The position numbers were made by a program, and so were the translations under genes. A model generated the notes under the pieces. The model was not told where the DNA came from. It was given only the letters and a program-made list of their open reading frames with translations, and did no database searches. Below are positions 1 through 43,992 of a DNA stretch of 64,000 bases, in pieces (within the stretch, counting starts at the first letter, position 1; each line of letters starts with the position of its first letter). Source of the DNA: Candidatus Fimihabitans intestinipullorum (GTDB taxonomy: Bacteria > Bacillota_I > Bacilli_A > RF39 > UBA660). Location: contig DVML01000022.1 in assembly GCA_018714965.1 (NCBI GenBank), positions 1,065 through 65,064 on the forward strand, in the 5' to 3' direction.

Positions 1-1590
1 AAGGTGGGTGTATATTGCAGATTATCTGATGAAGATAGAGATAAATTAAATAAAAATGATGATAGTAATTCAATAGTAAATCAAAGAAGTATGTGTTTAA
101 AGTTTGCTAATCAAAATGGATGGAATGTTGTTGATATATATTCAGATGATGATTTTTCAGGAGCAGGAACTTATAGACCAGATTTTGAAAGATTAATTAG
201 TGATTGCAAAAGTGGAAAAATAAATTTAGTTTTATGTAAAAGTCAATCAAGATTTTCTAGAGATATGGAAGTTATTGAAAGATATTTGCATAATAAATTT
301 ATAGAATGGGGAGTTAGATTTGTAAGTATTGTTGATAATGCTGATACTAATATTGAATCTAACAAAAAGTCACGACAAATAAACGGACTTATTAATGAGT
401 GGTATTTAGATGATTTGTCGCAAAATATTAAAAAGTCATTAAAGAATAAAAGAGAAGATGGCCTATTTATGGGAAGTTTTGCTCCATATGGTTATGAACG
501 AAATGAAGATGGTCATAAATTAATAGTAGATCCAGTTGCAGCAGAAGTTGTAAAAAAGATATTTGAATTATATGCAAATGGATATGGATATCATAAAATA
601 TGTGAATATTTAAATAACAACAATATTCCAACAAGAGCAATATATAAGAAACAAAAAGGCAGTAAATTTGTATGCAATAATTGTGATTTGAAAAATTCAA
701 GGTGGACTTCTGATACGATTGCTCAAATACTTAAAAATGAAGTTTATATTGGAAACTTAGTTCAAGGGAAAATAACTTCAATGGGTTATAAAGTTCATAA
801 GTTTAAAAAAGTTAATGAAGAAGATTGGTGTAGAATAGAAAACACTCATGAAGCAATTATTGATAAGGAAACTTGGAGCAAAGTACAAAAAAGATTAAAA
901 TCCCATAGTAAACCTATAAAAACAGGAGAAGTTCATTTTTTTACTAAGAAAGTTTATTGTAGTTGCTGTGGAAAACCTTTTATGAGAAATGTTTACAATG
1001 TAAAAAATGAAAGTACTGGTAAAAGAGCATATATGCAGTGTAAAGGAAATAAAAAATATCATATATGCGAAAACAATAAATCTATCAGGATGGATAAATT
1101 AGAAGAAATAATACAAAATGCTATTAACGATTTACTTGATAATTATTATGATAAAAATAATTTAAAAGAGCTCTATGAAAATAGAAAAATGCAAGATACA
1201 AATAATAATGAACGAATTAATATATTAGAAAAGGAAAAAACAAATCTTGAAAAGAAAATAGATGATAATAAATGTTATTATCGCAATCTTTATGAAGATA
1301 AAGTTAAAGGAACTATTAACGATGATATGTTTAGTATGATGTCAAAAGACTATTTAAAGGAAATAGAAATAATGACTAAAAGAATAAATAATATTGATGA
1401 TGAAATAAAAAGTTTAGAAGTAGTTAAAGAAACTAGGAAACAAGCTGAAGATATATTGAAAAAATACAAACATATAAAAGAGTTAAACAAAATAATAATT
1501 GATGAGTTCATAGATAAAATATATATTGGAGAAATTGATAAAGAAACTAATTCAAGAGATATTGAAATAGAATGGAATTTTGAATTTTAG
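1..1590 (+). CDS. Large serine recombinase, the terminal gene of an element lying mostly left of the window; 5' end probably clipped by the window edge
   Basis: ORF 4..1590, with the frame open to base 1. Resolvase-type catalytic region (VYCRLSDED, SQSRFSRD), central recombinase domain, Cys-rich zinc ribbon (CSCCGKP...CKGNKKYHIC), C-terminal coiled coil. Confidence 0.85.
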   Translation, partial: KVGVYCRLSDEDRDKLNKNDDSNSIVNQRSMCLKFANQNGWNVVDIYSDDDFSGAGTYRPDFERLISDCKSGKINLVLCKSQSRFSRDMEVIERYLHNKFIEWGVRFVSIVDNADTNIESNKKSRQINGLINEWYLDDLSQNIKKSLKNKREDGLFMGSFAPYGYERNEDGHKLIVDPVAAEVVKKIFELYANGYGYHKICEYLNNNNIPTRAIYKKQKGSKFVCNNCDLKNSRWTSDTIAQILKNEVYIGNLVQGKITSMGYKVHKFKKVNEEDWCRIENTHEAIIDKETWSKVQKRLKSHSKPIKTGEVHFFTKKVYCSCCGKPFMRNVYNVKNESTGKRAYMQCKGNKKYHICENNKSIRMDKLEEIIQNAINDLLDNYYDKNNLKELYENRKMQDTNNNERINILEKEKTNLEKKIDDNKCYYRNLYEDKVKGTINDDMFSMMSKDYLKEIEIMTKRINNIDDEIKSLEVVKETRKQAEDILKKYKHIKELNKIIIDEFIDKIYIGEIDKETNSRDIEIEWNFEF

Positions 1591-1603
1591 AAAGAAATAA
1601 TAA

Positions 1604-2800
1604 ATTTGGATTTTCTATGTTCCTGCACATGGGGGAAGTGATCCGGGAGCAAGTGGAAATGGAATTATAGAAAAAGATTTAAATTTAAAAATATCTCAGT
1701 ATATGTATGAACGATTTAAAGAGTTGGGAATTCCTGTTTATATTACAAGAGATGAAGATGAAACTTTAAGTCCAACAGAACGCGTGAAACGTATTTTAAA
1801 TGCATTTGGAAACAGAGAAGATGTTATTGTAATTTCTAATCATATTAATGCAGATGCAACGACTGCAGATGGAGCAGAGGTTATATATGCGCTTCGAAAT
1901 AATGATGTATTATCAAGTTTGATTTTAGAAGAATTGCAAAAAGCAGGACAAAATATAAGATATGCATACCAGAGAAAACTGCCAAGTAATCAATCAAAAG
2001 ATTATTACTTTATACATAGAGATACCGGAGTGACACAGCCAGTTATTGTAGAATATGGTTTTTTAGATAGTAACAAAGATGATCCAGAACAGCTTAAAAA
2101 CAACTATAAATTATATGCAGAAGCAGTGGTTACTGCTGTGTTACGCTACTTGGGAATAGAAGGTCAACAACCAGGAACATATACAGTGAAATCTGGAGAT
2201 AGTCTTTGGAGCATAGCGAAGCGATATAATGTTACAGTTGATGCATTAAAAAGTGCGAATAAGTTAACGACTAATGTTTTATCGATTGGTCAAGTTTTAA
2301 AGATACCCGGACCTGTTGTAGATGACAATAACGGTATCGAAACTGAGATTATATATGTGGTTGCTCCTGGTGATAGTTTATGGGCGATTGCAAGACAATA
2401 CGGTGTCACAGTAGATCAATTAAAACAAGCTAATAATCTAGTGAATGATTTATTGAATGTCGGAATGGAATTAAAAATACCAACGAAAAGTACAATTCCG
2501 CCAACAAATGAGATGGAAGTTATCTATACTGTAAAACCTGGAGATTCTCTTTATCGTATTGCACTTGAAAATAATATCACAGTAGATCAATTGAAAAAAT
2601 ATAATAATTTAACAAGTGATATGTTATTGATAGGACAGAAATTGCGTATTCCGTCTGCGACCCAAACAGTATATGTCGTGAAGGCAGGGGACAGTCTTTG
2701 GAGTATAGCAAATCGGTATGGAACGACAATAGATGCACTGCGAAGAAAAAACAATTTAACAACAGACATATTATCGATTGGGCAAAGATTATATATATAA
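1604..2800 (+). pseudogene. N-acetylmuramoyl-L-alanine amidase (Amidase_3 type) with 4 LysM repeats, lacking a start codon and RBS (split or 5'-truncated gene)
   Basis: The frame of ORF 1703..2800 stays open back to 1604 and reads IWIFYVPAHGGSDPGASGNGIIEKDLNLKISQYMYERF. This already includes the HGG metal-binding motif, which lies about 13 aa from the N-terminus of the intact paralogue at 5218. In-frame stops at 1598 and 1601; no ATG/GTG/TTG start and no Shine-Dalgarno upstream. The recombinase stop codon is about 13 nt away. Confidence 0.7.
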
Positions 2801-2866: not shown

Positions 2867-3868
2867 ATGATTTATCCAAAGTTTTTACAACCAGGATCAC
2901 AAATATTAGTGATATCTCCAAGTGATGGTAATTCAGAACCACTAGCGGAATCAAGAATTACTATGGCAGCAAATAAATTTGAAAAAAGAGGGTATTCTGT
3001 ATTATTGGGAAAAGATATTTTCCACAGTGAAAAGAGTAGAAGTGCAGATGCATTGAAACGGGTAGAGGAAATTCATAATGGAATATCTGATTCTAATATA
3101 CAATTATTGATTGCAAGTGCTGGTGGAGAATATGCTATGGAAATATTACCATACTTAGATTTTTCGATTGTGCGTAAGAATCCAACATGGATTCAAGGCT
3201 TTTCGGACGTGACGATACTAACTTATACAGTTACAACTGTATGTGATATTGCAACTTTATACGCTTCAAATTTTAAGGACTTTAGCATGGAGAAACTTCA
3301 TCCAACGTTAATAAATAATTTAGAAATTTTAAATGGGAGAATCGTAGAACAATCGTCAGCAAAAATGTATCAGGATCAATATATCGAATATGTGGATGGC
3401 AATGAAGGATATCGATTAACTAGACCTGTTAAGTGGAAAGGAAATCCTTGTCATATGGAAGGAAGATTGCTTGGTGGATGTATTGATGTTTTATCTAATA
3501 TAGTGGGTACACCGTATGATCATACAAAGGAATTTATTGAAAAGTATCAAGAAGATGGAATGCTTTGGTATTTAGAAAATTGTGAGTTAAGTGAAGCAGA
3601 GTTTACGAGAGTATTATGGAAAATGCGCGAATGTGGTTGGTTTGAACATACTAATGGGATTTTGTTTGGAAGGTCTACTGTAGATGAAACATTATGGGAA
3701 CAATCTCCAAGTGAAATTGTTGATGAACAATTAGGAAAATATCATATTCCATGTTTATTTGATATTGATTTAGGACATAAACCACCTAGGATGACATTTA
3801 TCAATGGAGCATATGGGATTGTTGACTGGGATGGAAAAGAAGGAAAGTTTCAACAAATTTTAAAATAA
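2867..3868 (+). CDS. LD-carboxypeptidase (peptidase S66, LdcA/MccF-like)
   Basis: 333 aa; N-terminal LQPGSQILVISPS, GFSDVT nucleophile motif, C-terminal DIDLGHKPP. Confidence 0.7.
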   Translation: MIYPKFLQPGSQILVISPSDGNSEPLAESRITMAANKFEKRGYSVLLGKDIFHSEKSRSADALKRVEEIHNGISDSNIQLLIASAGGEYAMEILPYLDFSIVRKNPTWIQGFSDVTILTYTVTTVCDIATLYASNFKDFSMEKLHPTLINNLEILNGRIVEQSSAKMYQDQYIEYVDGNEGYRLTRPVKWKGNPCHMEGRLLGGCIDVLSNIVGTPYDHTKEFIEKYQEDGMLWYLENCELSEAEFTRVLWKMRECGWFEHTNGILFGRSTVDETLWEQSPSEIVDEQLGKYHIPCLFDIDLGHKPPRMTFINGAYGIVDWDGKEGKFQQILK

Positions 3869-3971
3869 AAAAAGATAGCCTTGATTATAATACCTTTAAA
3901 GTTCACACTAAATAAAAAGAACTAAAATATGGTAAAATTTATTTAGAAAGAACTTTGGAGGTATTTTTTTC

Positions 3972-4238
3972 ATGGGAAAACATAAGAAATGGACTTTAGA
4001 ACAAAAAATCAAAATAGTAAAAGAATTTAAAAATGGAACAACCATTTCATATTTAAACAATAAGTATGGAATATCTGGTATGGGTACAATAAGCAGATGG
4101 AATCAAGAATATGATAAAGGAATTCTAGCAAAAGATAATCGTGGTAAGAAAAAATATAATCAAGAATTGGAGGATATAGATATATTAAAAAAATCCTATG
4201 CTCTTCTGATGGAAATCCGCTCTCAGCAACACAAATAG
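3972..4238 (+). CDS. IS3 transposase OrfA (HTH)
   Basis: 88 aa with an HTH and leucine-zipper-like C-terminus; RBS GGAGG at 3957-3961. Confidence 0.8.
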   Translation: MGKHKKWTLEQKIKIVKEFKNGTTISYLNNKYGISGMGTISRWNQEYDKGILAKDNRGKKKYNQELEDIDILKKSYALLMEIRSQQHK

Positions 4239-5092
4239 AAAAATATCAAATTATCGATAGATTAAAATTTGAGTATCCTGTAGTTAGAATATGCAGAGTT
4301 TTAAATGTAAATAGACGAAGTTATTATAAGTGGTGTAAAATAGGAAAACCACTTGCTAATAACTATAAACAAGAAATTGCTGATGTGATATCAGAAGAGC
4401 ATAAAAATGTCAAAGGAATTTATGGAACAATCAGATTAAAAAAACATATAGAGAATAAATCAAATATCGTATTAAATCATAAATTAATACGAAGATATAA
4501 ACATATTTTAGGTTTAGAGACAGTAAAACGTACGAAAAAAGGATTATCAGTTTCTAAAGCAAAAGAAAAGAACCTTATAAACAAGGCTCCATACTTAGTT
4601 GAATGTAACTTTAATTCAGATGTACCCAATCAAAAATTTTCATCTGATGTAAGCTATATAAAATGTAAAGACGGAACTCTTTACTTGTCAGCTATTAAAG
4701 ATTACTTCAACACTGAAATTGTATCATTTTCTACGTCGAATTACAATAACATAGATTTAATAAAAGAAAGTTATAAAAATGTAAGGCCAGAAAAAGGTAC
4801 CATAATTAATACCGATCAAGGAGCGGTTTATTTTGCTTATGAATATGTAGAATTAGCGAATAAAATGGAATTTACTAGAAGTATGTCTCATCGTGGACGT
4901 TGTTGGGAAAATTGTCCGATTGAAAATTGGTTTATGCAATTAAAACATGAATGGCTTTGTCAATTTGATAAACTTACGAGAAAAGAAGCAGAAAAAGAAA
5001 TCAAAAAATACGTTCATTGGTATAACAACGAACGTATTCAAAAGAAACTTGGATATTTATCACCTGTACAATACAGACTTAAATATTCATAA
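4160..5092 (+). CDS. IS3 transposase OrfB frame (DDE/rve integrase core), expressed as an OrfAB fusion by -1 frameshift
   Basis: The -1 frame is open from 4160. TTA AAA AAA TCC slippery heptamer at 4187-4193 in the orfA frame. rve-type motifs (FSSDVSYI, NTDQGAVY, WYNNERIQKKLGYLSP). Confidence 0.8.
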   Translation, partial: SRIGGYRYIKKILCSSDGNPLSATQIEKYQIIDRLKFEYPVVRICRVLNVNRRSYYKWCKIGKPLANNYKQEIADVISEEHKNVKGIYGTIRLKKHIENKSNIVLNHKLIRRYKHILGLETVKRTKKGLSVSKAKEKNLINKAPYLVECNFNSDVPNQKFSSDVSYIKCKDGTLYLSAIKDYFNTEIVSFSTSNYNNIDLIKESYKNVRPEKGTIINTDQGAVYFAYEYVELANKMEFTRSMSHRGRCWENCPIENWFMQLKHEWLCQFDKLTRKEAEKEIKKYVHWYNNERIQKKLGYLSPVQYRLKYS

Positions 5093-5217
5093 AACAAATA
5101 TTTTTATTTAGTGTGTACTTGACAGGTACTAGTATCCTTGGCTATCTTTTTTTATTAATATTGCTACTATGGTAGCAAAGTAGGCATACTTACATATTTT
5201 AATGTAGGGGTGAATTT

Positions 5218-6429
5218 ATGATGGAACGAGCAATTACTGGGGTTGTAATAGATGCGGCACATGGGGGAGAAGATGCTGGCAATACGGGGAACGGAATTGT
5301 AGAGAAGGATCTAGCTCTGCAAATTTCTCAGTATATGTATCGACGTTTACAAGAGTTGGGTGTTCCTGTTACGCTAGTTAGGAATTCAGATGAAACGATT
5401 TCTAATGAAGAGCGTATTCGCCGTATTTTAGCTCCTTATGGAGAAGGAAGTAATGTGATTGTAATTTCTAATCACGTGAATGCGGGAGGTGCGGACGGTG
5501 CTGAAGTTGTATATGCTCTTCGAAATAATTCTACACTAGCAAATCAAATCGCACAAGAATTAGAATTGGCAGGACAAAATGTAATCAAAGTATATCAAAG
5601 AAGATTGCCAAGTGATACATCGAAAGATTACTATTTTATTCACCGAGATACAGGGAATACACAACCGATTATTATCGAATATGGATATGTAGATAGCAGT
5701 CAGGACGATCCAGAACAGTTAAAGAATAATTATGATCGCTATGCGGAAGCGGTGGTAAAGGCGATTGCAGCGTATATTGGAAAATCATATGTCCCAGAAT
5801 TAGATGAAAATAGCTATGTTGTAAAATCTGGCGATAGTTTGTGGAGTATTGCAAATCGTTATGGTCTTACAGTTGATCAGTTGAAGTCTGCCAATGGGTT
5901 AACGAGCAATTTACTACAAGTAGGGCAAGTGTTAACGATTCCTAAGAAAAGTACAGAATCACCGTCAGAATCTAATAATAATATTTATATTGTAAAATCC
6001 GGAGATAGTCTTTGGAGTATAGCAAATCGATATGGAACGACAGTATCAATTCTAAAGCAATTGAATGGTTTAACTTCCGATAATTTAAGTATAGGTCAAA
6101 AATTATATCTTCCTAATCAGGGAAGTGAGGAGAAGCCTGAAAATGTAACTTATGTTGTAAAAAGTGGAGATAGCTTATATACGATTGCGAGAAAGTATAA
6201 TACGACAGTAAATGATTTAATGAACTTGAATCAACTTAAAACGAGTTTACTGAGTATAGGGCAAGTTCTAAAAATCCCAAATAGCTCAGCTGGGACTGTC
6301 TACGTTGTGAAATCAGGAGATAGTCTTTGGAATATTGCAAATCGATATGGAACGACAGTCGATGCAATCAAACAAAAAAATGGATTAACGGGTAATAATT
6401 TAAGTATCGGTCAAGTATTATATATTTAA
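5218..6429 (+). CDS. N-acetylmuramoyl-L-alanine amidase (Amidase_3) with 4 C-terminal LysM repeats, intact
   Basis: 403 aa; VIDAAHGGEDAGN, EKDLAL, ISNHVNAG; four repeats of the YxVKSGDSLWSIAxRYG...IGQxL type. Confidence 0.85.
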   Translation: MMERAITGVVIDAAHGGEDAGNTGNGIVEKDLALQISQYMYRRLQELGVPVTLVRNSDETISNEERIRRILAPYGEGSNVIVISNHVNAGGADGAEVVYALRNNSTLANQIAQELELAGQNVIKVYQRRLPSDTSKDYYFIHRDTGNTQPIIIEYGYVDSSQDDPEQLKNNYDRYAEAVVKAIAAYIGKSYVPELDENSYVVKSGDSLWSIANRYGLTVDQLKSANGLTSNLLQVGQVLTIPKKSTESPSESNNNIYIVKSGDSLWSIANRYGTTVSILKQLNGLTSDNLSIGQKLYLPNQGSEEKPENVTYVVKSGDSLYTIARKYNTTVNDLMNLNQLKTSLLSIGQVLKIPNSSAGTVYVVKSGDSLWNIANRYGTTVDAIKQKNGLTGNNLSIGQVLYI

Positions 6430-6453
6430 AAAAAGCAACTTAGTTGCTTTTTT
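6428..6453. terminator. Bidirectional rho-independent terminator between the amidase and the cwlJ 3' fragment
   Basis: AAAAAAAGCAAC tta GTTGCTTTTTT: stem flanked by an A-run and a T-run. Confidence 0.7.
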
Positions 6454-6697
6454 AATGAAGTTCTTGACATTCTCCTTTATCTGGCTGATAAAAACAATGG
6501 TTTTTATATCTTCCAGCTAGTGTTTGATCCCACCATGTAGATGTACAATTGGTTCCTCTAGCAGGTGCATAAAACCATAAAGCGTTGGTAGCTGGATGAT
6601 AGTATTCTCCTCTAATTACTCGATCTGCTAAAGCTCTTTCTGTCGATGTTGGATTACTGAAAAAAAGAGGGCTATCTACCCCGGAGAAGCCACCAGG
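6452..6697 (-). pseudogene. cwlJ: 3' fragment of a cwlJ-type cell wall hydrolase (Hydrolase_2 family), separated from its 5' part by the prophage
   Basis: The minus-strand frame reads PGGFSGVDSPLFFSNPTSTERALADRVIRGEYYHPATNALWFYAPARGTNCTSTWWDQTLAGRYKNHCFYQPDKGECQELH*. It has no start, and a stop (TAA) lies immediately upstream at 6698-6700. Confidence 0.8.
6690..6694. other. att core, left junction
   Basis: ccccggagaagCCACCaggttattccaagttggtac: host sequence to the left, phage sequence to the right. Confidence 0.6.
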
Positions 6698-6715
6698 TTA
6701 TTCCAAGTTGGTACA

Positions 6716-8083
6716 CTACATTAAAAAGTTAATCTCGAATTCATTTTTACCTTTAATCTCAATCGATTCTATAATACTTCCCCACAGTTCTCTTTTTTCT
6801 TGGTTGTTTAATTTATCATAAGTTTTGAAAATATCACTTGATAAAAATGTTTGAATCTTGTTTAAATTAGTTTTAGTTTTATCGATGCTCTTATATTTTT
6901 TATTTTCTTCTAATATTTTTTTCAGAGAACTATATTGTTCATTGTAGTAATCTATATCAATCATATCATTTAAATATAATTCACTCAATTTGTTCATTTT
7001 TCTTTTAACTGAATCTATATTTATCTTTTTTTCATTTTGATTAACTTCATCAATTTTTAGCTTTTTTTGTTCGAACTGAGTAAAAATATTTTTAATTACA
7101 AACTCTTCTATTCTTTTTTCTGGTACGTTATATTTATTAGAACAATAATTGCTTTCATTTGCTCGTTTGCAACGATAGTAATGCATATTGTTTTTGCTTG
7201 CATATCGCCCTGACATTTTTCTTCCGCATTGTCCACATTTGATTAGTCTAGAAAAAATATACGGATCGGTATTTTTGTGTTTGATTTCTTTGATATTGTT
7301 TTTAAATAGCTCTTGAACGCGATAAAACACGTCCTCGTCAACGATTTGTGGGCAGAAGTCCTCTAATATCTCTCCGGTAGATTTTCTCACATAGCGACCG
7401 ATATAAGCAGTATTTTTTAGATATATTTTAATAGAATCGTAACTCTTCTGTGAACAATTTTGTTGAAACCAACGAACAGTCTTTGATAGATTGTTAGTCA
7501 ATAAATATTGATCAAACAATCCTTGAATATGTGGAGCAGTTTCAGGATCTATGACAATTTTTTTATCGTCAGAAATTTTGTACCCGTAAGGTACTTTTCC
7601 ACTACATACTGTTTTTTGAACGCGAAACTTGTGATCAAATACAGATACGATACGTTCACCCGTTCTCTTTGCTTCCATTTGCCCTAGCGATAGTGACATG
7701 TTAAGCCAAAATTCTCCAGATGCAGTTGTAGTATCATAATCTTCCCAGATTGTTTTCCAGGCAACATTATTTTTCTTCAAAATTTCAATGACCTTATAGA
7801 AATCGGCAATATTCCTAAACCATCTATCTAACTTCGTCATTAAAATTAGATCTATATGTCCGGTTTCTAAGTCTTTTAACATTCGTTGAAGATTAGTTCG
7901 TTTTAATTTTTGGCCAGATTCTCCACCATCGATATAGGTACCATATATTTTATATTTATTTTTCTTTGCGTAATCAGTCAGAGCTTTCTCTTGCGCCTCT
8001 AAAGAATCCCCCTCTTTTGCCTGACGATCCGTTGAAACACGAATATAGAGCGCAACTGTTTTGATTCTGTCTTTTTGTGTCAT
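6716..8083 (-). CDS. Large serine recombinase (phage integrase)
   Basis: 455 aa; VALYIRVSTDRQ catalytic Ser motif, TKLDRWFRN, recombinase domain, zinc ribbon CGQCGRKM...YYRC, coiled-coil tail. The stop codon lies 21 nt from the att core. Confidence 0.9.
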   Translation of the reverse strand: MTQKDRIKTVALYIRVSTDRQAKEGDSLEAQEKALTDYAKKNKYKIYGTYIDGGESGQKLKRTNLQRMLKDLETGHIDLILMTKLDRWFRNIADFYKVIEILKKNNVAWKTIWEDYDTTTASGEFWLNMSLSLGQMEAKRTGERIVSVFDHKFRVQKTVCSGKVPYGYKISDDKKIVIDPETAPHIQGLFDQYLLTNNLSKTVRWFQQNCSQKSYDSIKIYLKNTAYIGRYVRKSTGEILEDFCPQIVDEDVFYRVQELFKNNIKEIKHKNTDPYIFSRLIKCGQCGRKMSGRYASKNNMHYYRCKRANESNYCSNKYNVPEKRIEEFVIKNIFTQFEQKKLKIDEVNQNEKKINIDSVKRKMNKLSELYLNDMIDIDYYNEQYSSLKKILEENKKYKSIDKTKTNLNKIQTFLSSDIFKTYDKLNNQEKRELWGSIIESIEIKGKNEFEINFLM

Positions 8084-8279
8084 TATATCACTTCCATTTT
8101 TTAATGCTTTATGATATAATTATATACGAAAAACTCATATATAATTATTATGTAATTGCTTGTACTAATGTTATATTGTTTTTCATTTCGTTACTGCGCC
8201 AACAGTAACGTTTTTTTGATTTTAATAGTATCAAAGTTTACTAATTAACATATAATAATGATGAAAGAGCCTAAGAATC

Positions 8280-9287
8280 CTACGCGGACTTAGGACTTTT
8301 AATTTCAACCCAATTATCAGGAAAATTCATAATTTTTAATATATCCTGAATATTTAGTGTATGTAAATGTTTTTCCAAACTTTTTATTCGTCCATATATT
8401 TTATTATACATGGTTATAAAATCATCGTGATCTAACAGATTTTTTAATGATATTATTAGTGCAAATAAATCATTTTTTCCTTGTATATACATTTCTCCTT
8501 GACGCTTAATATTTAATTTTTTATGGTAGATATTATCTTTTATATAAATGTATTTGGGAACTTTAGTATTGTAAACTCTTTCATCATGTGCACATAGATT
8601 TCTATAAAAATTCATAATTTTTATAAATTGCATTAGCTCATCTTCTCTACAATTTAAATGTTTGGCAACAAGATTTCTTTCTTTCTGATTCATTAATTCG
8701 AAAAATTTACTAACGTCTCCGAAGGAGAATATGTTAATTAAGACCCATAATGGAACAAATCCATATGTTAACATATAGTGTTTAATATATTCTTTAGTAG
8801 TTATAGATGTTGAGGTTTTTTGCTGGATAATTATAATTAACTCTTGAATATGTTTAATTTGATTTAATTTAATTTTTTCACTTACTTTTACTGAATTGAA
8901 ATTTTCAAAACAATCAATTTTTAAATAATTATCGTTCCCGTGATGCATTGAAAAATAGTAGGAAATTAAAGTTTTAAGGGTATTTTCAATTTTTAAAATA
9001 TATTTCAAAAAGATATCTCTTAATGCACGATCAAAATCATATAACGCAAAAATTTCATCAAAAGTTGTTCCGTCCATATAATTAGTCTCATCTTTTAAAA
9101 AGGGTTCTTTATATCCGTTTATTACGTTGTAATAGTTATTGGTCAATAATTTTTTCTTTGTGTCTTCTGTATCTGTAATTATTACACCTCTAGATCTTAG
9201 TAAATTTATTTGCTCATCTAATGTTTTAAATTGCTTCATAATATAATAAAAAGTCTTCGGTCCCATGGGATACCGAAGCTCATTCAC
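8280..9287 (-). CDS. Abi_2 family (AbiD/AbiF-like) abortive infection protein
   Basis: 335 aa; N-terminal FKTLDEQINLLRSRGVII...LLTNNYYNVINGY, typical of the Abi-like family; CAHDERVYN motif. Confidence 0.7.
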   Translation of the reverse strand: MNELRYPMGPKTFYYIMKQFKTLDEQINLLRSRGVIITDTEDTKKKLLTNNYYNVINGYKEPFLKDETNYMDGTTFDEIFALYDFDRALRDIFLKYILKIENTLKTLISYYFSMHHGNDNYLKIDCFENFNSVKVSEKIKLNQIKHIQELIIIIQQKTSTSITTKEYIKHYMLTYGFVPLWVLINIFSFGDVSKFFELMNQKERNLVAKHLNCREDELMQFIKIMNFYRNLCAHDERVYNTKVPKYIYIKDNIYHKKLNIKRQGEMYIQGKNDLFALIISLKNLLDHDDFITMYNKIYGRIKSLEKHLHTLNIQDILKIMNFPDNWVEIKSPKSA

Positions 9288-9293
9288 ATCAAC

Positions 9294-9322
9294 ATTATAT
9301 AATTAAATGCTTGAACTGTCAA
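9294..9322 (-). promoter_or_regulatory. Consensus sigma-A promoter of the Abi gene; near-leaderless
   Basis: Minus strand TTGACA-17 nt-TATAAT. Only 6 nt separate the -10 from the GTG at 9287, and no Shine-Dalgarno is present. Confidence 0.6.
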
Positions 9323-9397
9323 TACCCACTGTTTAACTTTTTCTCCTTCCTATAAATTATTTAATATTATCTAATTATATACTAATGATATACTTTT

Positions 9398-9526
9398 TTA
9401 TCTTATTATTGTTGGCGCAGTAACGTTTTTTAATAAATATTGATTAGATATCAAGAGTAAAATTATATAATTATTATTCTTAATAATTATATAATTAAAG
9501 CCTATTGGCAAAATATAGTAAATCAT
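9398..9526 (-). CDS. Hypothetical 42-aa hydrophobic peptide
   Basis: Strong RBS TAGGAGGT 5 nt before the ATG; MIYYILPIGFNYIIIKNNNYIILLLISNQYLLKNVTAPTIIR. No homology recognised. Confidence 0.3.
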   Translation of the reverse strand: MIYYILPIGFNYIIIKNNNYIILLLISNQYLLKNVTAPTIIR

Positions 9527-9590
9527 ATAACTACCTCCTAAGAAAATGATATCTTAAAATGTGTAGTTATAAATTGTAATCGCTTTGAAA

Positions 9591-9944
9591 TTACTGTTTT
9601 CGTCCTTCAAAATTTTTTGAGGAAGCTATTTCTTGTTTGAGGAAAGATACATATCGATCAGCATCGTCCTCAAGAACATCTACTTTTAAAGCCAATAAAT
9701 CATTATTGATTTGATTTAATTGGCTCAGCTCAATATGAGCTAGTTCATGCAATATTGTTTTCTTTTTTAAGTAATACGATAAGTTTTTATTGATCATAAT
9801 GTTATGAATATCTTTATAAGAAAATACACATCCTCGAATATTACTAGGCAAAGATTCGTAAGTTATAGTTGCATTGTAATAATTTAATAGATCGGTTTCT
9901 GTTATATTTCCACATAATAAATTATATATATTCAAATTATACAC
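9591..9944 (-). CDS. ImmA/IrrE-family zinc metallopeptidase (anti-repressor protease)
   Basis: 117 aa; HELAHIEL (HExxH) motif; located immediately downstream of the XRE repressors, as in ImmR/ImmA modules. Confidence 0.7.
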   Translation of the reverse strand: MYNLNIYNLLCGNITETDLLNYYNATITYESLPSNIRGCVFSYKDIHNIMINKNLSYYLKKKTILHELAHIELSQLNQINNDLLALKVDVLEDDADRYVSFLKQEIASSKNFEGRKQ

Positions 9945-10040
9945 CCCTTATTGTTCAAATATTGTAAAGAATTAAAATATAAGATAAACAATTCAGATAT
10001 ATGATCCAAACTTTCCATTTGTTTCAACTGTTAGGATGTT

Positions 10041-10505
10041 TTATTTTACTTGCTTATCAATTTCATCCATTCTTTTTCCTATTAAAGATAAAATTGCTTT
10101 TTTTTGTTCTTCTGGTAATTCCATAAGAGCTTTATCAGTTTCGCTTGCATTTTTGAGAAATACTGTTGTGCCATCGGCTTTTTGTATATAGATTCCATCA
10201 TCATTATTTTCTATTTTTTCTTTTTGAATTTCATTTTTATATTTTGGAACATCAAATCCCATTAACCAAGCGGGATTTACGTTTAAGGCTTCTGATAGAA
10301 TAGTCAATTTCCATTGACCAGGTTCATATTTCCCAGAAATCCATTGACTTAAATCGGATTTAGTTATTTTTACTTTTTTTCCGTCCCTAAAATAATATTT
10401 ATTGCTGATAGGTTCACATTTTCTTATTATATCTGCTTGTTTTAAATTTCTTTCGTTCATTATTTTTTTGAGCCTTGTTGCAGTACTCTCTTTAATCATA
10501 ACCAA
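10041..10505 (-). CDS. XRE-family repressor 1 (HTH plus a shared C-terminal domain)
   Basis: 154 aa; HTH_3-like N-terminus ending AWLMG; C-terminal 55 aa almost identical to the neighbouring repressor. Confidence 0.7.
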   Translation of the reverse strand: MVMIKESTATRLKKIMNERNLKQADIIRKCEPISNKYYFRDGKKVKITKSDLSQWISGKYEPGQWKLTILSEALNVNPAWLMGFDVPKYKNEIQKEKIENNDDGIYIQKADGTTVFLKNASETDKALMELPEEQKKAILSLIGKRMDEIDKQVK

Positions 10506-10522
10506 TGTCCTCTCGATAACAT

Positions 10523-10918
10523 TTATTCATCTCCCAGCTGTTTGTCAATTTCATCCATTCTTTTCCCTATTAGGGATAGAATGGCTTTTTTTTGTTCTTC
10601 GGGTAATTCCATAAGAGCTTTATCAGTTTCGCTTGCATTTTTGAGAAATACTGTTGTGCCATCTGCTTTTTTAATATATATACCGTTATCATTATTTTCT
10701 ATAGTTTGAATTCGTAAATCCTTACTGAGTAAATCATTTAAGGGAACATTCAACATTTCTGCTAATTTTAATGCATTATCAATAGTAGTTTCGATTTCTC
10801 CATTTTCAATCCGCGAAATAGTAGATCTGTCAACTCCAATTTTATTTGCTAAATCTTGTTGCGAAATTTTTTTTACTTTTCGTAGATATTTAATGTTATT
10901 ATTTAAAAATTCAGCCAA
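10523..10918 (-). CDS. XRE-family repressor 2 (CI-like)
   Basis: 131 aa; canonical HTH SQQDLANKIGVDRSTISRIENG; divergent to the cro-like gene; RBS GGGAGGT. Confidence 0.8.
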   Translation of the reverse strand: MAEFLNNNIKYLRKVKKISQQDLANKIGVDRSTISRIENGEIETTIDNALKLAEMLNVPLNDLLSKDLRIQTIENNDNGIYIKKADGTTVFLKNASETDKALMELPEEQKKAILSLIGKRMDEIDKQLGDE

Positions 10919-10941
10919 AACAATTACCTCCCAGCACTTTA

Positions 10942-10951
10942 ATTATAACAT
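10942..10951 (-). promoter_or_regulatory. Extended -10 (aTGtTATAAT) for repressor 2
   Basis: The reverse complement of ATTATAACAT gives a TGnTATAAT-type extended -10, about 24 nt upstream of the start codon. Confidence 0.5.
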
Positions 10952-10999
10952 AAAAAAGCAAAAAAACAACACACGTTGTGAAAAAATGCACATTTATTG

Positions 11000-11028
11000 T
11001 TGACAAGTGCATATATGCACGATATAAT
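11000..11028 (+). promoter_or_regulatory. Early rightward promoter with an embedded operator palindrome
   Basis: TTGACA (11000-11005), 17 nt, TATAAT (11023-11028). The spacer holds the perfect palindrome GTGCATATATGCAC (11007-11020), and an additional TGCAC half-site lies at 10987-10991. Confidence 0.75.
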
Positions 11029-11051
11029 AAGTGTAGATAGGAGGTAACATA

Positions 11052-11282
11052 ATGCTGGAAGCAATAGGAAAAGAACTGAAAATTATTAGAATTAGAAATA
11101 ATTTAAAATTAGAAGATGTTGCTAAAGATATTAAATTAAATAGAGAAACTCTTCGTAGATATGAAAATTCAGCTAGTGGACTATCAGTTGAAAGATTAGA
11201 GAATTTATTAAATTATTATGGCGTAGACAGTTCAATTTTTTTTGAAAGAATATGTGAATATATGCACACAAATCGAAGGTAA
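11052..11282 (+). CDS. XRE-family HTH protein (Cro-like)
   Basis: 76 aa; HTH LKLEDVAKDIKLNRETLRRYEN; RBS TAGGAGGT. Confidence 0.7.
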   Translation: MLEAIGKELKIIRIRNNLKLEDVAKDIKLNRETLRRYENSASGLSVERLENLLNYYGVDSSIFFERICEYMHTNRR

Positions 11283-11286
11283 AGAA

Positions 11287-11481
11287 ATGATATCAAAATA
11301 TTTAAAACAATATTTTAAAAATCGAAATATTAGTCAATATGAAGTTTCAAAACGAACGAAAATAGATAGAACAAAAATCAATCTATCGTTCAATAATAAA
11401 CGAAAACTTACAGCAGATGAACTTATTTTGATTGCAAATGTATTTGAAATAGATTTAAACAAAATAAAAAAGATTAAATAA
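11287..11481 (+). CDS. XRE-family HTH protein
   Basis: Start trimmed to the ATG at 11287 (MISKYLKQYFKNRNISQYEVSKRTKIDRTKIN...); the longer track ORF overlaps the previous gene. Confidence 0.6.
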   Translation: MISKYLKQYFKNRNISQYEVSKRTKIDRTKINLSFNNKRKLTADELILIANVFEIDLNKIKKIK

Positions 11482-11940
11482 CAACTAATCGTTACTTAAT
11501 CTTTCTAACAACCCAAAATTGTCCTTTCAAAACAACTTTGGGCGAGTTTTAAAATACTAATTCAATTACTACATTTCACAAATACTGACTATAACTAGTT
11601 AACTGATCAAATAGCCATTATTTATTCAGCATTAAGCGTTGAAAGCACTTAACTGTAATTGTCCATAATATAAGAGTTTTCTTTCTCTGCTACCTCAAGA
11701 AGAAGTAGTTCCCCATAGCTTATAGAACGTCTCAGCAATTAGGCAGGGAATTGGCTATTAAACTTTTGATAAAGCTTCACAACCTTTCTAGCCCACATAA
11801 GGACCAGTATGAGTATATCAAATTATAGTTAGAAATTCAAACTTTTTTTGAGAAAAACTGGAAAATTAGAAAAAATTTTTATCTACAATAATAAAATCAT
11901 ATAGCAAATAAAACATTAGTACAAACGAGGTGAATAAATA

Positions 11941-12141
11941 ATGAATACAGATAAAATAATTAAATTTATAAAATTAGTTGAAGAAAACAAATTTACTTTA
12001 AAAGAATGGGATTATTTAGCATCGATAATAAATACAAGATTCGATCTTATTTCTGGGAAGGTCATTTTTACAGTAGACGATGCAGTTTTAACATTATACG
12101 GTAAAAAAGATTTATTTAAGACAATAGAAAAAAGACAATGA
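11941..12141 (+). CDS. Hypothetical protein
   Basis: 66 aa; RBS ACGAGGTG upstream; no recognisable domain. Confidence 0.4.
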   Translation: MNTDKIIKFIKLVEENKFTLKEWDYLASIINTRFDLISGKVIFTVDDAVLTLYGKKDLFKTIEKRQ

Positions 12142-12153
12142 CTTGCTTTCTTC

Positions 12154-12357
12154 TTAATACTTTTCAATTTGTAAGTAGATAATTGGAACTACATATTTTA
12201 TTGAATTGTGTGTAATACAAATAGTAGGGTTTTCTTTAAACTTATCTTCGACAGTAAAAAAACCGGATACAAAACTACTTGGTTTGACGCCATTTATATT
12301 ATCTAGTTCGTCATCTAATAAAGTCCATTTTCCCAAAATATTAGCATAGACGTTCAC
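12154..12357 (-). CDS. Hypothetical protein on the lysogeny strand
   Basis: 67 aa; GTG start with RBS GGGAGGTGA; preceded by the extended -10 aTGtTATAAT at 12378-12387. Confidence 0.45.
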   Translation of the reverse strand: MNVYANILGKWTLLDDELDNINGVKPSSFVSGFFTVEDKFKENPTICITHNSIKYVVPIIYLQIEKY

Positions 12358-12653
12358 AGTATCACCTCCCTATGTTTATTATAACATGGAGGATAGATAG
12401 GATAAATCAAAGGGAGTATATCAAAGTAGAATTAAAAATACAAATTAGTACAAGCAAGAAAAAATAAAATTATATAGGAGGTGTTAGCATTGCTAACCGA
12501 TAAACAAATAGAAAGATTTTACGATACATTGATCAAGATTTTAGAACGCAAATTTGATGTAAAAATTGAGTATGAAATCGTAGATGTAGAAAGGGGAGAA
12601 AATGCGTGAAGAAAGAGAAAGATTTTGATTTAATAATTCATCATAATTCCTTA

Positions 12654-12836
12654 CTAGCTATTATTATTGTTTTGAGTCAATTGATGTTTACTGTTTTGCA
12701 AACCGCTTTTATTCTCATGACGTTTTCTAATTGAACAGTAAACAAAGTCAATATACCAAATCAAAGTTATCAATAAAAACGCAAACATGAAACAAATAGA
12801 AAAGAATAAATAAATATCTAACCAATTATATTTCAA
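12654..12836 (-). CDS. Hypothetical single-TM membrane peptide (about 60 aa)
   Basis: TTG start 6 nt after GAGGTG; extended -10 at 12862-12871; hydrophobic core IYLFFSICFMFAFLLITLIWYIDFVY. The N-terminal extension in the ORF track was discarded. Confidence 0.3.
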   Translation of the reverse strand: MKYNWLDIYLFFSICFMFAFLLITLIWYIDFVYCSIRKRHENKSGLQNSKHQLTQNNNNS

Positions 12837-12909
12837 TTTAAACACCTCGCTTTCTATTGAAATTATAACATGGCAAAAGATAAAAAAATAAAGAGAAGGA
12901 GGATAGAAA

Positions 12910-13059
12910 ATGAAAGAAATATTAAAAAGTAAAATGATGATTTTATTCACAGTATTTATTTTGGGGATTGCACTAGTGGATGGACTTCAAGCACAAAAAA
13001 AAGACTTGAATGGAGCTGGAACTCAAATTTCAAGTCAATCAAATTATTTACAAAAATAA
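12910..13059 (+). CDS. Small signal-peptide-bearing ORF, copy A (49 aa)
   Basis: RBS GAAGGAGG; MKEILKSKMMILFTVFILGIALVDGLQAQKKDLNGAGTQISSQSNYLQK: n-region, h-region, LQA, then a hydrophilic tail. Paralogue at 13829. Confidence 0.5.
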   Translation: MKEILKSKMMILFTVFILGIALVDGLQAQKKDLNGAGTQISSQSNYLQK

Positions 13060-13172
13060 TTCACTAACAATATAGCATGTGATTTTATAAATGTCAAATT
13101 TTGTTCTTTGAAAACTTAATAAAAACTTAACGTCAAACTAAAGTATATTTTCAATTATTTTGAAAGGAGGTC

Positions 13173-13202
13173 TTGACATCATGGCTTCACACAATGTATA
13201 AT
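13173..13202 (+). promoter_or_regulatory. Promoter embedded in a long inverted repeat, upstream of the RHH gene
   Basis: TTGACA-18 nt-TATAAT lying within GTCTTGAC...CTTCACACAATgtataattATGTTGTGAAGTCAAGA. Confidence 0.55.
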
Positions 13203-13234
13203 TATGTTGTGAAGTCAAGATAGAAAGAAGGGAT

Positions 13235-13390: not shown

Positions 13391-13403
13391 AAATAACAAA
13401 AAA

Positions 13404-13452
13404 AGATAGAAAATGTGCTTAAGTTTCGAAGTCAAGAACACATAATCTATCT
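13404..13452 (+). other. Structured hairpin 1 of a covarying pair
   Basis: AGATAGAaAATGTG, 21-nt loop, CACATaATCTATCT. Confidence 0.5.
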
Positions 13453-14206: not shown

Positions 14207-14219
14207 CTAAGGAGAAAGT

Positions 14220-43766: not shown

Positions 43767-43800
43767 AATTCCCAATTTATAAGTGTACTAATTAAGAATA

Positions 43801-43992
43801 TCCACCGGGATTTTGATAAGCGACTTCGGATATCGTACGAACGTTTTTAAATGTTAAGCAATTAGAAATGCCTCTATTTACAACGACGTTACCAACCATT
43901 AGCATACCAAGATCGCCTTCACCCACTGCTTCTGCACGCATTAATCTCGCGAGTAAATCGCGTTCTTTGCTAGTTGCTTTTATAATTGCCAC
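43801..43992 (-). pseudogene. cwlJ: 5' fragment of the cwlJ-type cell wall hydrolase
   Basis: GTG at 43992, 6 nt after AGGTG. (M)AIIKATSKERDLLARLMRAEAVGEGDLGMLMVGNVVVNRGISNCLTFKNVRTISEVAYQNPGG, then the phage-derived YS* (stop at 43792). Collinear with the N-terminus of B. subtilis CwlJ as I recall it. Confidence 0.8.
43802..43806. other. att core, right junction
   Basis: gtactaattaagaatatCCACCgggattttgataagc: phage sequence to the left, host sequence to the right. Confidence 0.6.

What the first reader, a model, noticed from the sequence alone, without database searches (positions are those of the whole stretch)
1..2800. A second, unrelated large serine recombinase abuts a start-less Amidase_3/LysM gene only 5 kb from the cwlJ-integrated prophage
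The amidase reading frame is open from 1604 and already contains the near-N-terminal HGG metal-binding motif (IWIFYVPAHGGSDPGASG). It has no start codon and no RBS, two in-frame stops lie just upstream, and the recombinase stop codon is about 13 nt away. The geometry matches the prophage: the 3' end of the recombinase gene points at the junction with an interrupted cell-wall hydrolase gene. This suggests that an element extending left of the window is inserted within the first few codons of this amidase, with the missing codons and promoter at its far end. The two recombinases are clearly different proteins, with different catalytic-region and zinc-ribbon sequences. If so, two independent serine-recombinase elements interrupt two peptidoglycan hydrolase genes in one neighbourhood, while an intact paralogue (5218-6429) sits between them.
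Basis: partly seen in the sequence, partly recalled or inferred. Interest (0 to 1): 0.6.

Follow-up and report, generated by a model that had tools for sequence, protein, structure and literature searches.

The report
Recombinase defence island splits sporulation-type amidase
A mobile DNA island carrying anti-phage genes and its own serine recombinase sits inside the active-site codons of a cell-wall amidase gene of a tiny-genome, spore-forming gut bacterium; exact removal would rebuild the gene, which adds a new target and cargo to the known 'split sporulation gene' phenomenon, although timed excision is not shown.

Summary

**What is there**
- The amidase frame (window 1604-2800) has no start. 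Its His-Gly-Gly codons lie 38 nt after the stop of a 534-aa large serine recombinase (LSR).
- The missing RBS, ATG and first 16 codons lie on another contig (C28:7338-7397). They are followed by the element's left end.
- Two same-genus genomes carry the uninterrupted 403-codon gene in the same neighbourhood.
- The element carries GajA, a GajB cut by an insertion sequence (IS), and a conserved core of structured leader, Rep-like HTH protein, 47-aa ORF and LSR.

**How widespread**
- LSR relatives lie directly before an amidase fragment starting at the same motif in 63 of 80 loci, and 62 of the 63 frames are open.
- The host has Spo0A and sigK/gerE/cotE-type promoters.
- A third LSR family splits the paralogous amidase in a sister genome, and a prophage splits cwlJ 5 kb away.

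**What remains open**
- A 99.8% identical copy sits in a different amidase gene and carries a Mob relaxase, so the element is a recently mobile integrative mobilizable element.
- No mother-cell-type promoter was found in the recombination module, and no excised form was seen.
- Sporulation-timed excision is therefore plausible but unproven.

The parts
1..1590 (+). Large serine recombinase (534 aa; the ATG lies 15 nt left of the window, at C12:1050). It is the last gene of the element and reads towards the junction.
   Evidence: ORF. Pfam Resolvase, Recombinase, Zn_ribbon_recom and DUF4368. PHROG integrase E 3e-112. Nearest solved catalytic domains are 3g13 and TnpX 2mhc.
1595..1627 (+). Element-side arm of attR (P arm): AATAATAAATTTGGATTTTCTATGTTCCTGCA.
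   Evidence: The motif TTTGGAYTTTTC...CCTGCACAYGG is conserved after the recombinase stop in relatives. It is inverted relative to the left-end arm on C28.
1628..1632 (+). Crossover region CATGG: the His codon plus the first two bases of the first Gly codon of the HGG motif.
   Evidence: Identical in attL (C28:7389-7393) and attR. Host-variable and element-constant positions switch sides across these 5 nt in 17 attL and 34 attR junctions.
1628..2800 (+). 3' part of amidase-1 (codons 14-403): Amidase_3 from the HGG motif onward, plus four LysM repeats and the stop codon.
   Evidence: It is 91% identical to the intact orthologues in G001 and G002. dN/dS is 0.05-0.075.
2867..3868 (+). LD-carboxypeptidase (Peptidase_S66). 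This flanking host gene serves as the synteny marker.
   Evidence: Pfam. It is adjacent to amidase-1 in G001 and G002.
3972..5092 (+). IS3-family insertion sequence (orfA 3972-4238, orfB 4385-5092) between the two amidase genes.
   Evidence: ORFs. Precomputed Pfam HTH_Tnp_1 and rve on the identical contig L127. Absent at this place in G001 and G002.
5218..6429 (+). Intact paralogue amidase-2 (403 aa, Amidase_3 plus LysM). In the sister genome G001 this gene is split at codon ~90 by another LSR island.
   Evidence: Split copy in G001. CATATTTTA (CATAnnnTA) lies 12 nt upstream of the GGGGTG ribosome-binding site.
6455..6690 (-). 3' piece of cwlJ-type (SleB/CwlJ) hydrolase gene at the left junction of the 37-kb prophage.
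   Evidence: Translation.
6716..8083 (-). Second, unrelated large serine recombinase (455 aa) of the cwlJ-integrated prophage.
   Evidence: It is 23% identical to the first LSR and is conserved in G001.
43795..43992 (-). 5' piece of cwlJ with its own AC-N15-CATATAATA promoter-like motif and GTG start.

Best explanation
**What it is (shown).** An integrative element moved by a TnpX-like large serine recombinase (LSR) is inserted in the His-Gly-Gly active-site codons of a CwlC-like Amidase_3-LysM gene. The host is an uncultured gut Bacilli species with a 1.3-Mb genome that carries sporulation genes.

- The element starts on contig C28 after codon 16 of the gene and ends at window 1632.
- From left to right it carries GajA, a GajB cut at residue ~243 by an IS3-like insertion sequence, an internal segment that is missing from this assembly, and a conserved core.
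- The core consists of a ~110-nt three-hairpin leader, a Rep-like winged-helix protein, a 9-codon uORF, a 47-aa ORF and the LSR.
- Integration was an attP x attB exchange within CAYGG, most simply at the GG of the first Gly codon.
- Joining the flanks restores a 403-codon gene identical in layout to the intact orthologues of two sister species.

**How it probably works (inferred).**
- The split allele is null, because the 3' part has no start and the 5' part stops after 17 codons.
- The LSR, probably helped by the conserved 47-aa protein as directionality factor, excises the island precisely and rebuilds the amidase gene.
- I think the most likely setting is the terminally differentiated mother cell during sporulation, as for skin, SPbeta and gin. 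The spore chromosome would then keep the island and its defence genes, while the lytic enzyme is made only where it is needed.
- The element is also a recently mobile integrative mobilizable element, so excision must serve transfer too.
For: **Structure**
- attL with RBS, ATG and 16 codons on C28, sharing the core ACATGG with the window junction.
- Intact orthologues and conserved synteny in G001 and G002.
- Restored ORF of 403 codons without a stop.
- GajA E 1e-146; GajB matches profile positions 9-240 of 471. IS ends at the contig breaks.

**Dedicated site**
- 63 of 80 LSR-relative loci have an Amidase_3 piece beginning at xHGG downstream of the LSR. Of the 63 frames, 62 are open; 18 of them stop at ~88 codons, at SNHINAGG, a second recurrent split site.
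- All 17 metagenome hits to the left arm are amidase N-termini.
- The crossover maps to CAYGG.

**Function retained**
- dN/dS of the split gene is 0.05-0.075, against 0.065 for the intact pair.
- In G061 (a circular MAG), G062 and G063 the only CwlC-like gene is the split one.
- About 10 targets are CwlD-like genes.
- The LSR, the 47-aa ORF and both att sites are intact although the cargo is IS-damaged.
- The 47-aa ORF is conserved next to the LSR in about 55 loci.

**Sporulation context**
- Spo0A_C is found in 19 of 19 family genomes.
- A scan for AC-N15-17-CATAnnnTA plus RBS in this genome picks ORFs that I read as pro-sigma-K, GerE, CotE, CotJA and a CotY/Z-like protein, plus the cwlJ 5' piece.
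- The same motif precedes the RBS of the amidase homologues in 7 of 15 genera, and the CATAnnnTA -10 part alone precedes several split 5' ends.
- 82% of cargo coding length is co-oriented with the amidase promoter.

**Precedents:** PMC4191935, PMC5595907, PMC5025042.
Against: - No AC-N15-17-CATAnnnTA motif lies within 1 kb upstream of the LSR in 0 of 75 loci, and no CATAnnnTA lies in the 170 nt upstream of the HTH gene.
- The promoter of amidase-1 in this genus (GAATATAnATAnTATAG) does not fit the sigma-K/E pattern, so its sporulation role rests on homology.
- The element behaves as a mobile IME. A 99.7-99.8% identical left part sits in a different amidase gene in another metagenome, and that copy carries a Mob_Pre relaxase and an R-M pair.
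- The LSR clade is patchy: it occurs in 29 of 201 genera, is absent from both sister species, and reaches 82% identity across genera.
- If the insertion is recent, the low dN/dS and the open frames say little about function after insertion.
- An intact paralogue could make the loss harmless in this genome.
- TnpX-type LSRs need no directionality factor (PMC5704250).
- No attP junction was found in metagenome or viral contigs.
- All 14 same-strain contigs from other samples show the occupied site.
Confidence: 0.55

Rival explanations
1. It is a plain integrative mobilizable element. The LSR uses the conserved DxGHGG codons of Amidase_3 genes only as a reliable landing site in a gene that is dispensable or backed up. 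The gene stays off while the element is resident. Excision occurs only stochastically or on a transfer signal, with no link to sporulation.
For: - A near-identical copy sits in another amidase gene and carries a Mob_Pre relaxase.
- The LSR clade is patchy across genera and absent from sister species.
- An intact 58%-identical paralogue lies 2.4 kb away.
- No mother-cell-type promoter was found in the recombination module.
- The IME review states that serine-recombinase IMEs typically disrupt dispensable genes and that TnpX needs no RDF (PMC5704250).
- The catalytic domain is nearest to TnpX and to a C. difficile transposon recombinase.
Against: - In several genomes the only CwlC-like gene is the split one, sometimes split twice.
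- CwlD-like genes are also hit. By established knowledge these are needed for cortex muramic lactam and for germination.
- 62 of 63 interrupted frames are open.
- At least three LSR families and a prophage all target sporulation-type hydrolase genes in this lineage. That is hard to explain by neutrality alone.
Confidence: 0.33
2. It is a fixed, decaying remnant. The island can no longer excise, and amidase-1 is a young pseudogene in this species whose function has passed to amidase-2.
For: - GajB is cut by an IS in every sample of this strain.
- At least two IS copies lie inside the element.
- All 14 contigs from other samples are occupied and none is empty.
Against: - The LSR (534 aa), the 47-aa ORF, the leader and both att arms are intact, and they match the family consensus.
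- dN/dS on the G000 branch is about 0.06, and the 1.2-kb 3' part has no stop or frameshift.
Confidence: 0.1
3. It is an artefact or an ordinary gene: a chimeric contig join, or an amidase that naturally begins at an internal or non-canonical start.
For: The genome is a fragmented MAG of 41 contigs, and the two halves lie on different contigs.
Against: - Independent assemblies from other samples give identical junctions.
- The same junction anatomy is seen in 60 or more unrelated MAGs and in 17 metagenome contigs.
- Orthologues begin 16 codons upstream with an RBS.
- A protein starting at the first ATG (1703) would lack the HGG motif.
Confidence: 0.02

Closest known systems
gin element in gerE of Bacillus cereus ATCC 10987 (GirC LSR plus 42-aa GirX; PMC5595907)
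   Same: A non-prophage island splits a small region of a sporulation gene. An LSR sits in the element with a tiny conserved partner ORF. Precise excision rebuilds the gene.
   Different: - The target here is an amidase active-site motif, not gerE.
- The cargo is an anti-phage system.
- Developmental timing and the RDF role of the 47-aa ORF are untested.
- This element shows recent horizontal movement and has a relaxase-bearing twin.
skin elements in sigK (B. subtilis SpoIVCA; C. difficile CD1231 plus RDF CD1234; PMC5025042) and SPbeta in spsM (SprA/SprB; PMC4191935, PMC5499854)
   Same: An LSR gene lies inside an element that interrupts a mother-cell gene. attL and attR have short shared cores. 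The spore line keeps the element.
   Different: - skin and SPbeta are prophages or their remnants, with sigma-E/K control of the recombinase or RDF.
- No such promoter is detectable in this module.
- SprA is only a distant match (E 6e-10).
Tn4451/Tn4453 integrative mobilizable elements (TnpX LSR plus TnpZ Mob relaxase; PMC5704250)
   Same: - The catalytic domain is among the nearest solved matches (2mhc, E 5.6e-13).
- A C-terminal DUF4368 is present.
- The 99.8% twin L117 carries a Mob_Pre relaxase.
- Both are small non-phage elements.
   Different: - Tn4451 has low target specificity and carries catP.
- Its TnpX needs no RDF, and tnpX lies at the other end of the element.
- This family is strictly site-specific for xGHGG codons of Amidase_3 genes.
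Heterocyst-specific excision elements of cyanobacteria (fdxN element, XisF)
   Same: A serine recombinase removes an element from a gene in a terminally differentiated cell. Several elements can interrupt genes of one pathway.
   Different: The phylum and the developmental programme differ. The XisF NCBIfam match is far below its cut-off (103 against 375 bits).

Membership tests
Large serine recombinase (phage-integrase type) | N-terminal resolvase catalytic domain, recombinase domain and zinc-ribbon domain with coiled coil | tested here: met
   Pfam PF00239, PF07508 and PF13408, all above their cut-offs. PHROG integrase E 3e-112. Matches to solved LSR chains.
Large serine recombinase (phage-integrase type) | att sites with imperfect inverted arms around a short shared core, with the recombinase gene next to one junction | tested here: met
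   Arms TTTGGATTTTC (attR) and GAAAAATCCAAA (attL) flank the shared ACATGG. They are conserved across 34 attR and 17 attL junctions.
Sporulation gene-intervening element (skin / SPbeta / gin kind) | Interrupts the coding frame of a sporulation gene expressed in the mother cell | tested here: inconclusive
   - The frame interruption is shown.
- The host has Spo0A and sigK/gerE/cotE-type promoters.
- Homologues in 7 of 15 genera have AC-N16-CATAnnnTA.
- The promoter of this genus's amidase-1 does not fit that pattern, and no expression data exist.
Sporulation gene-intervening element (skin / SPbeta / gin kind) | Exact excision restores an intact functional ORF | tested here: met
   In silico only. 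The joined flanks give 403 codons that are collinear with, and 91% identical to, the intact orthologues.
Sporulation gene-intervening element (skin / SPbeta / gin kind) | Excision occurs, and occurs specifically during sporulation in the mother cell | not testable with these tools
- No attP was found in assembled collections.
- No sigma-E/K-type motif lies in the recombination module.
Sporulation gene-intervening element (skin / SPbeta / gin kind) | A recombination directionality factor is encoded in the element | tested here: inconclusive
   A 47-aa ORF with a strong RBS is conserved directly upstream of the LSR in about 55 loci. It matches no Pfam or PHROG family. Its function is untested.
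Gabija defence system | GajA (OLD-family ATPase/Toprim nuclease) together with a full GajB (UvrD-like helicase) | tested here: not met
   GajA is complete (PDLC04168, E 1e-146). GajB covers only profile positions 9-240 of 471 because an IS cuts it. The twin L117 has the full 461-aa GajB.
Integrative mobilizable element (Tn4451-like) | Integration/excision module plus its own relaxase and oriT | tested here: inconclusive
   - No relaxase is found in this assembly.
- The 99.8% identical copy L117 has Mob_Pre (E 7e-27).
- An internal segment of the element is missing from this MAG.
- oriT was not identified.

The most novel reading that the evidence does not exclude
In a whole family of tiny-genome, spore-forming gut Bacilli, the genes for the lytic enzymes of the sporulation end-game (CwlC-like amidases, CwlD, CwlJ) would serve as shared docking sites for exchangeable, mobilizable defence islands. 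Several unrelated serine-recombinase families would each home to the codons of a different catalytic motif.

Excision would be self-timed. The interrupted gene's own late mother-cell promoter reads into the co-oriented island, past a conserved three-hairpin gate, and into the 47-aa-ORF/LSR module. The gene to be repaired would thus trigger its own repair only in the cell that is about to lyse.
Probability: 0.2. Interest if true: 0.85.

Novelty: new variant of a known kind. Interest (0 to 1): 0.6.

Why it matters
Known sporulation gene-intervening elements split regulators or envelope-synthesis genes (sigK, spsM, gerE, spoVFB, spoVR) in Bacillus and Clostridium species. In the full-text library searched, none is reported in a peptidoglycan amidase.

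This case adds four things:
- The target is the catalytic HGG codons of a lytic enzyme.
- The cargo is an anti-phage system.
- The recombinase is TnpX-like.
- The host lineage is uncultured, with genomes of only ~1-1.3 Mb that still keep sporulation genes.

If excision is developmentally timed, defence islands ride in the germline at no cost to sporulation, and mother-cell lysis or germination competence is gated by DNA rearrangement. If it is not timed, this is a clean example of a strictly motif-specific IME family.

Either way, the LSR with its ~50-bp att sites and candidate 47-aa partner forms a compact, testable integrase/RDF pair.

Tried and rejected
2. **attP junction pattern** (P arm + core + P' arm). 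It gave 0 hits in metagenome contigs and viral contigs. A looser P'-arm pattern found only attL junctions.
3. **Joining C28 to C12 through one IS copy.** The contig ends are the two ends of one IS3-like element in consistent orientation. However, the 3-bp target duplications do not match (aat against gtc). Another assembly (L127) shows 1.1 kb of extra element sequence left of C12:130. I therefore rejected both a simple single-IS join and an IS-mediated deletion. At least two IS copies and an unassembled internal segment are more likely, and the element's length stays unknown (over 6 kb).
4. **Sigma-K/E-type promoter in the recombination module.** None was found in 75 loci.
5. **Sporulation promoter for amidase-1 of this genus.** No convincing sigma-K, E, H or A assignment emerged by eye.
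6. **Rfam on the element's right part.** No family matched.
7. **An inverted copy of the attR arm ~65 nt upstream of the HTH gene.** The signal is weak: 15.8 of 24 matches, against 14.8 for mismatched pairs and 13.5 for shuffles. I kept it only as a passing note.
8. **dN/dS as evidence of function after insertion.** It is low, but it is uninformative if the insertion is recent, which one search suggests.
Full report
**1. The observation**

The window is C12:1065-65064 of a 1.30-Mb assembly of 41 contigs, rated 94% complete.

- A 534-aa ORF ends at TAG 1588-1590. Its ATG lies 15 nt left of the window.
- Pfam finds Resolvase, Recombinase, Zn_ribbon_recom and DUF4368 in it, so it is a large serine recombinase (LSR).
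- Thirteen nucleotides later, after TAA TAA at 1598-1603, a frame opens at 1604. It reads IWIFYVPAHGGSDPGASG... and continues to 2800 as Amidase_3 plus four LysM repeats.
- No start codon or ribosome-binding site serves the HGG codons. The first in-frame ATG is at 1703.
- The intact paralogue at 5218-6429 is 58% identical.
- The second LSR at 6716-8083 (-) is 23% identical to the first.
- It sits at the left junction of a ~37-kb prophage that splits a cwlJ-type gene. The pieces are at about 6455-6690 and 43795-43992, minus strand.

**2. The missing 5' end**

A low-stringency tblastn with the paralogue's N-terminus found MNSEIRGIVIDPGHGG on contig C28:7350-7397. It is preceded by AGAGGTGATAAA and followed by Tyr-stop and unrelated DNA.

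- attL reads ...GATCCGGGACATGG-AGGATACTGAAAAATCCAAAAA...
- attR reads ...AAATTTGGATTTTCTATGTTCCTGCACATGG-GGGAAGTGATCC...
- The two share ACATGG. The element-side arms are inverted copies of each other (TTTGGATTTTC and GAAAAATCCAAA).

**3. The empty site**

Two genomes of the same genus carry an uninterrupted 403-codon orthologue. It is 91% identical over the 240-aa query and begins MN[ST]EIRGIVIDPGHGGSDPGATGNG, preceded by a ribosome-binding site.

Gene order in both is CwlD-AbiD-HtrA-VanZ/RDD-(2-4 kb)-amidase-1-LD-carboxypeptidase-amidase-2. C28 carries CwlD-AbiD-HtrA-VanZ/RDD and the 16 codons. The window carries the rest. C28 and C12 are therefore the two sides of one locus with the element between them.

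Joining the flanks at CATGG gives a 403-codon ORF without a stop.

**4. Contents of the element**

- *Left part (C28:7394-9909).* It holds a complete GajA (PADLOC E 1e-146) and a GajB that matches only the first half of its profile. The GajB is cut by the end of an IS3-like element at the contig break.
- *Right part (C12:130-2696).* It holds a ~110-nt conserved leader, a 152-aa HTH_36 protein, a 9-codon uORF, a 47-aa ORF and the LSR. The HTH_36 protein's N-terminus resembles phage replication-initiator or DnaD-like winged helices.
- *The gap.* The IS target duplications at the two breaks do not match. Another assembly of the same strain, L127, is 100% identical over 12.8 kb. It continues 1.1 kb further left through an 87-aa ORF, which the IS interrupts here, and a divergent HTH_19 repressor-like gene. 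An internal segment of the element is therefore missing from this MAG, and the element's length is unknown.

**5. A family dedicated to one site**

- A scan of one genome per species found 141 LSR relatives. The 80 kept are 50-82% identical and come from gut 'Bacilli', 'Tenericutes' or 'Mollicutes' MAGs. They include Candidatus Onthousia, Clostridium sp. CAG:417 and a circular 1.31-Mb MAG.
- In 63 of the 80 loci an Amidase_3 fragment starting at xHGG follows the LSR. In 46 it follows within 70 nt. In the rest, a gene of about 0.4-1.4 kb lies between them.
- The element-side arm TTTGGAYTTTTC...CCTGCACAYGG is conserved, whereas the amidase side varies with the host.
- All 17 metagenome matches to the left arm are amidase N-termini fused to the same arm.
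- Across 17 attL junctions, the codon before His varies with the host and the wobble base of the first Gly is A in 15. Across 34 attR junctions, that wobble base varies (T16, A12, G4, C2). The exchange therefore lies within CAYGG, most simply at the non-palindromic GG.
- The targets are mostly CwlC-like Amidase_3-LysM genes. About ten are CwlD-like.

**6. Is the split gene kept alive?**

- Of the 63 interrupted frames, 62 are open. Forty-one run 170 or more codons. Eighteen stop after ~82-95 codons, at SNHINAGG. Four run off their contig, and one (L071) is broken.
- SNHINAGG is the second recurrent split site. One search shows it in about half of the family's genera, with pieces 10-13 kb apart on one strand.
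- In G001 that site in amidase-2 holds a 12.6-kb island. The island carries two large ORFs that I read as SIR2-like and HerA-like, two methyltransferases, a nuclease-like ORF and a third LSR that is 33% identical to the first.
- In G061 (circular), G062 and G063 the only CwlC-like gene is the split one.
- In this genome, dN/dS of the restored gene against the intact orthologues is 0.05-0.075, compared with 0.065 for the intact pair.

These facts favour a gene that still works after excision. They are weakened if the insertions are young.

**7. Mobility**

- A metagenome contig (L117) is 99.7-99.8% identical to the left 2.5 kb of the element, but it is joined to a different amidase N-terminus (MNNLQVVIDAGHGG).
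- L117 continues with a full 461-aa GajB, a Mob_Pre relaxase, a Bsp6I-like nuclease and a C5 methyltransferase.
- The LSR clade occurs in 29 of 201 genera of the family and is absent from both sister species. It reaches 82% identity between genera whose amidases are ~65% identical.
- The element is therefore a recently mobile integrative mobilizable element.
- Within this strain the site is occupied in all 14 contigs from other samples, and GajB is always cut by the IS.

**8. Sporulation context**

- Spo0A_C is present in all 19 family genomes searched, and among the 14 control genomes it rings only in Bacillus subtilis.
- A strict scan for AC-N15-17-CATAnnnTA followed by an RBS and an ORF gives 19 hits in this genome. 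By my reading of their N-termini they include pro-sigma-K, GerE, CotE, CotJA, a CotY/Z-like protein and a SpoVIF-like protein. They also include the cwlJ 5' piece.
- The same motif sits just before the RBS of the amidase homologues in 7 of 15 genera, and its CATAnnnTA -10 part sits before several split 5' ends.
- Amidase-2 here has CATATTTTA 12 nt before its RBS.
- Amidase-1 of this genus has a different, conserved upstream block (GAATATAnATAnTATAG) that I could not assign to a sigma factor.
- The recombination module shows no such motif in 0 of 75 loci. The region before the LSR has a conserved TATAAT-like box instead.
- Cargo genes are 82% co-oriented with the amidase promoter. Read-through from the host promoter is therefore conceivable, and the conserved hairpin-plus-T-run in the leader could gate it. 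This is speculation.

**9. Comparison with known systems**

- *Layout.* It matches sporulation gene-intervening elements: skin, SPbeta, vfbin and vrin (PMC4191935); gin with GirC and the 42-aa GirX (PMC5595907); and C. difficile skin with the RDF CD1234 (PMC5025042).
- *The recombinase.* It is closer to TnpX and C. difficile transposon recombinases. The twin's relaxase recalls Tn4451-type IMEs. The IME review says that serine-recombinase IMEs disrupt dispensable genes and that TnpX needs no RDF (PMC5704250).
- *Literature.* Full-text searches found no report of an intervening element in an amidase gene.
- *Earlier notes of this scan.* They describe the same phenomenon in other genomes. I treated them as leads and re-derived the site specificity, the second split site and the CwlD targets from my own data.

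**10. Verdict**

- *Shown:* the split gene, both junctions, the empty site in sister species, the family-wide site specificity, the Gabija cargo with IS damage, and recent mobility.
- *Inferred:* that the LSR still excises the island and rebuilds the gene, that the 47-aa protein is its directionality factor, and that excision is linked to sporulation.

I put sporulation-linked or otherwise functional reconstitution at about 0.55, a plain IME insertion at about 0.33, a fixed remnant at about 0.1, and an artefact at about 0.02.

Noticed in passing
L026 (=G000 C12) 160-272, just left of the window; alignment A1: A conserved ~110-nt three-hairpin element lies at the cargo/core boundary of the element family. 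Hairpin 1 has compensatory changes at 7 of 9 pairs. Hairpins 2 (GGTAC...GTACC followed by TTTTCT) and 3 (TTCTATA...TATAGAA) are invariant in sequence. Rfam gives no match. It could be a terminator or attenuator, an operator, or an origin.
   Followed up: partly
L026 290-330 and 792-821: The HTH_36 gene seems to start at ATT or ATA 5-9 nt after a strong RBS in most relatives. A conserved 9-codon uORF (M-x-M-[IK]-G-G-x-x-L-stop) lies between it and the 47-aa ORF.
   Followed up: no
L023 (G001 C16) about 3840-16450: In the sister genome the paralogue amidase-2 is split at codon ~90 (SNHINAGG) by a 12.6-kb island. The island holds two large ORFs that I read as SIR2-like and HerA-like, two DNA methyltransferases, a nuclease-like ORF and a 553-aa LSR. 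The same split position recurs in about half of the family's genera.
   Followed up: partly
L031, L034, L036, L039, L045, L049, L056, L057, L062, L077, L082, L087, L093 and others: In 18 loci the amidase piece that follows the HGG-site element stops after ~88 codons, at the second split site. One gene is therefore cut into three pieces by two different LSR elements. This includes the circular MAG OZ006981.1.
   Followed up: partly
L117 (ERZ1643249 contig, 6.5 kb): A 99.7-99.8% identical copy of this element's left part is inserted in a different amidase gene. It carries a full GajB, a Mob_Pre relaxase, a Bsp6I-like nuclease and a C5 methyltransferase.
   Followed up: yes
L030, L031, L038, L043, L053, L054, L055, L061, L062, L083, L119: In about 11 loci a ~0.9-kb gene (product starting MNEIKEYNE...) is inserted inside the right arm, directly after TTTGGACTTTTCT and before the att core. 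A 72% identical copy lies on own contig C37:28553-29352.
   Followed up: no
L026 about 255-285 and homologous places in relatives: A motif GGAAAAGTCC (GAAAATCC here), the reverse complement of the attR arm core, lies ~65 nt upstream of the HTH gene. The match to the locus's own arm is only slightly better than to other loci's arms (15.8, 14.8 and 13.5 of 24).
   Followed up: partly
window 3972-5092; contig ends C28, C18, C25, C7 / C12, C21, C15; C17, C37, C41, C15: At least three IS types cause most contig breaks in this small genome. One IS3-family copy sits between the LD-carboxypeptidase gene and amidase-2, and it is absent there in both sister species.
   Followed up: partly
G000 C25:~9640(-), C26:6216(+), C40:~1642(-), C7:8864(+), C12:50783(-), C22:27795(+): The strict AC-N15-17-CATAnnnTA promoter scan picks out ORFs that I read as sigK, gerE, cotE, cotJA, cotY/Z-like and spoVIF-like genes. 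A genome of only 1.3 Mb thus retains a mother-cell sporulation programme with Bacillus-like promoter logic.
   Followed up: partly
L025 (G000 C28) 3132-4844: An AbiD-type abortive-infection gene sits immediately after cwlD in the chromosome. It is conserved at 97-100% identity in both sister species.
   Followed up: no
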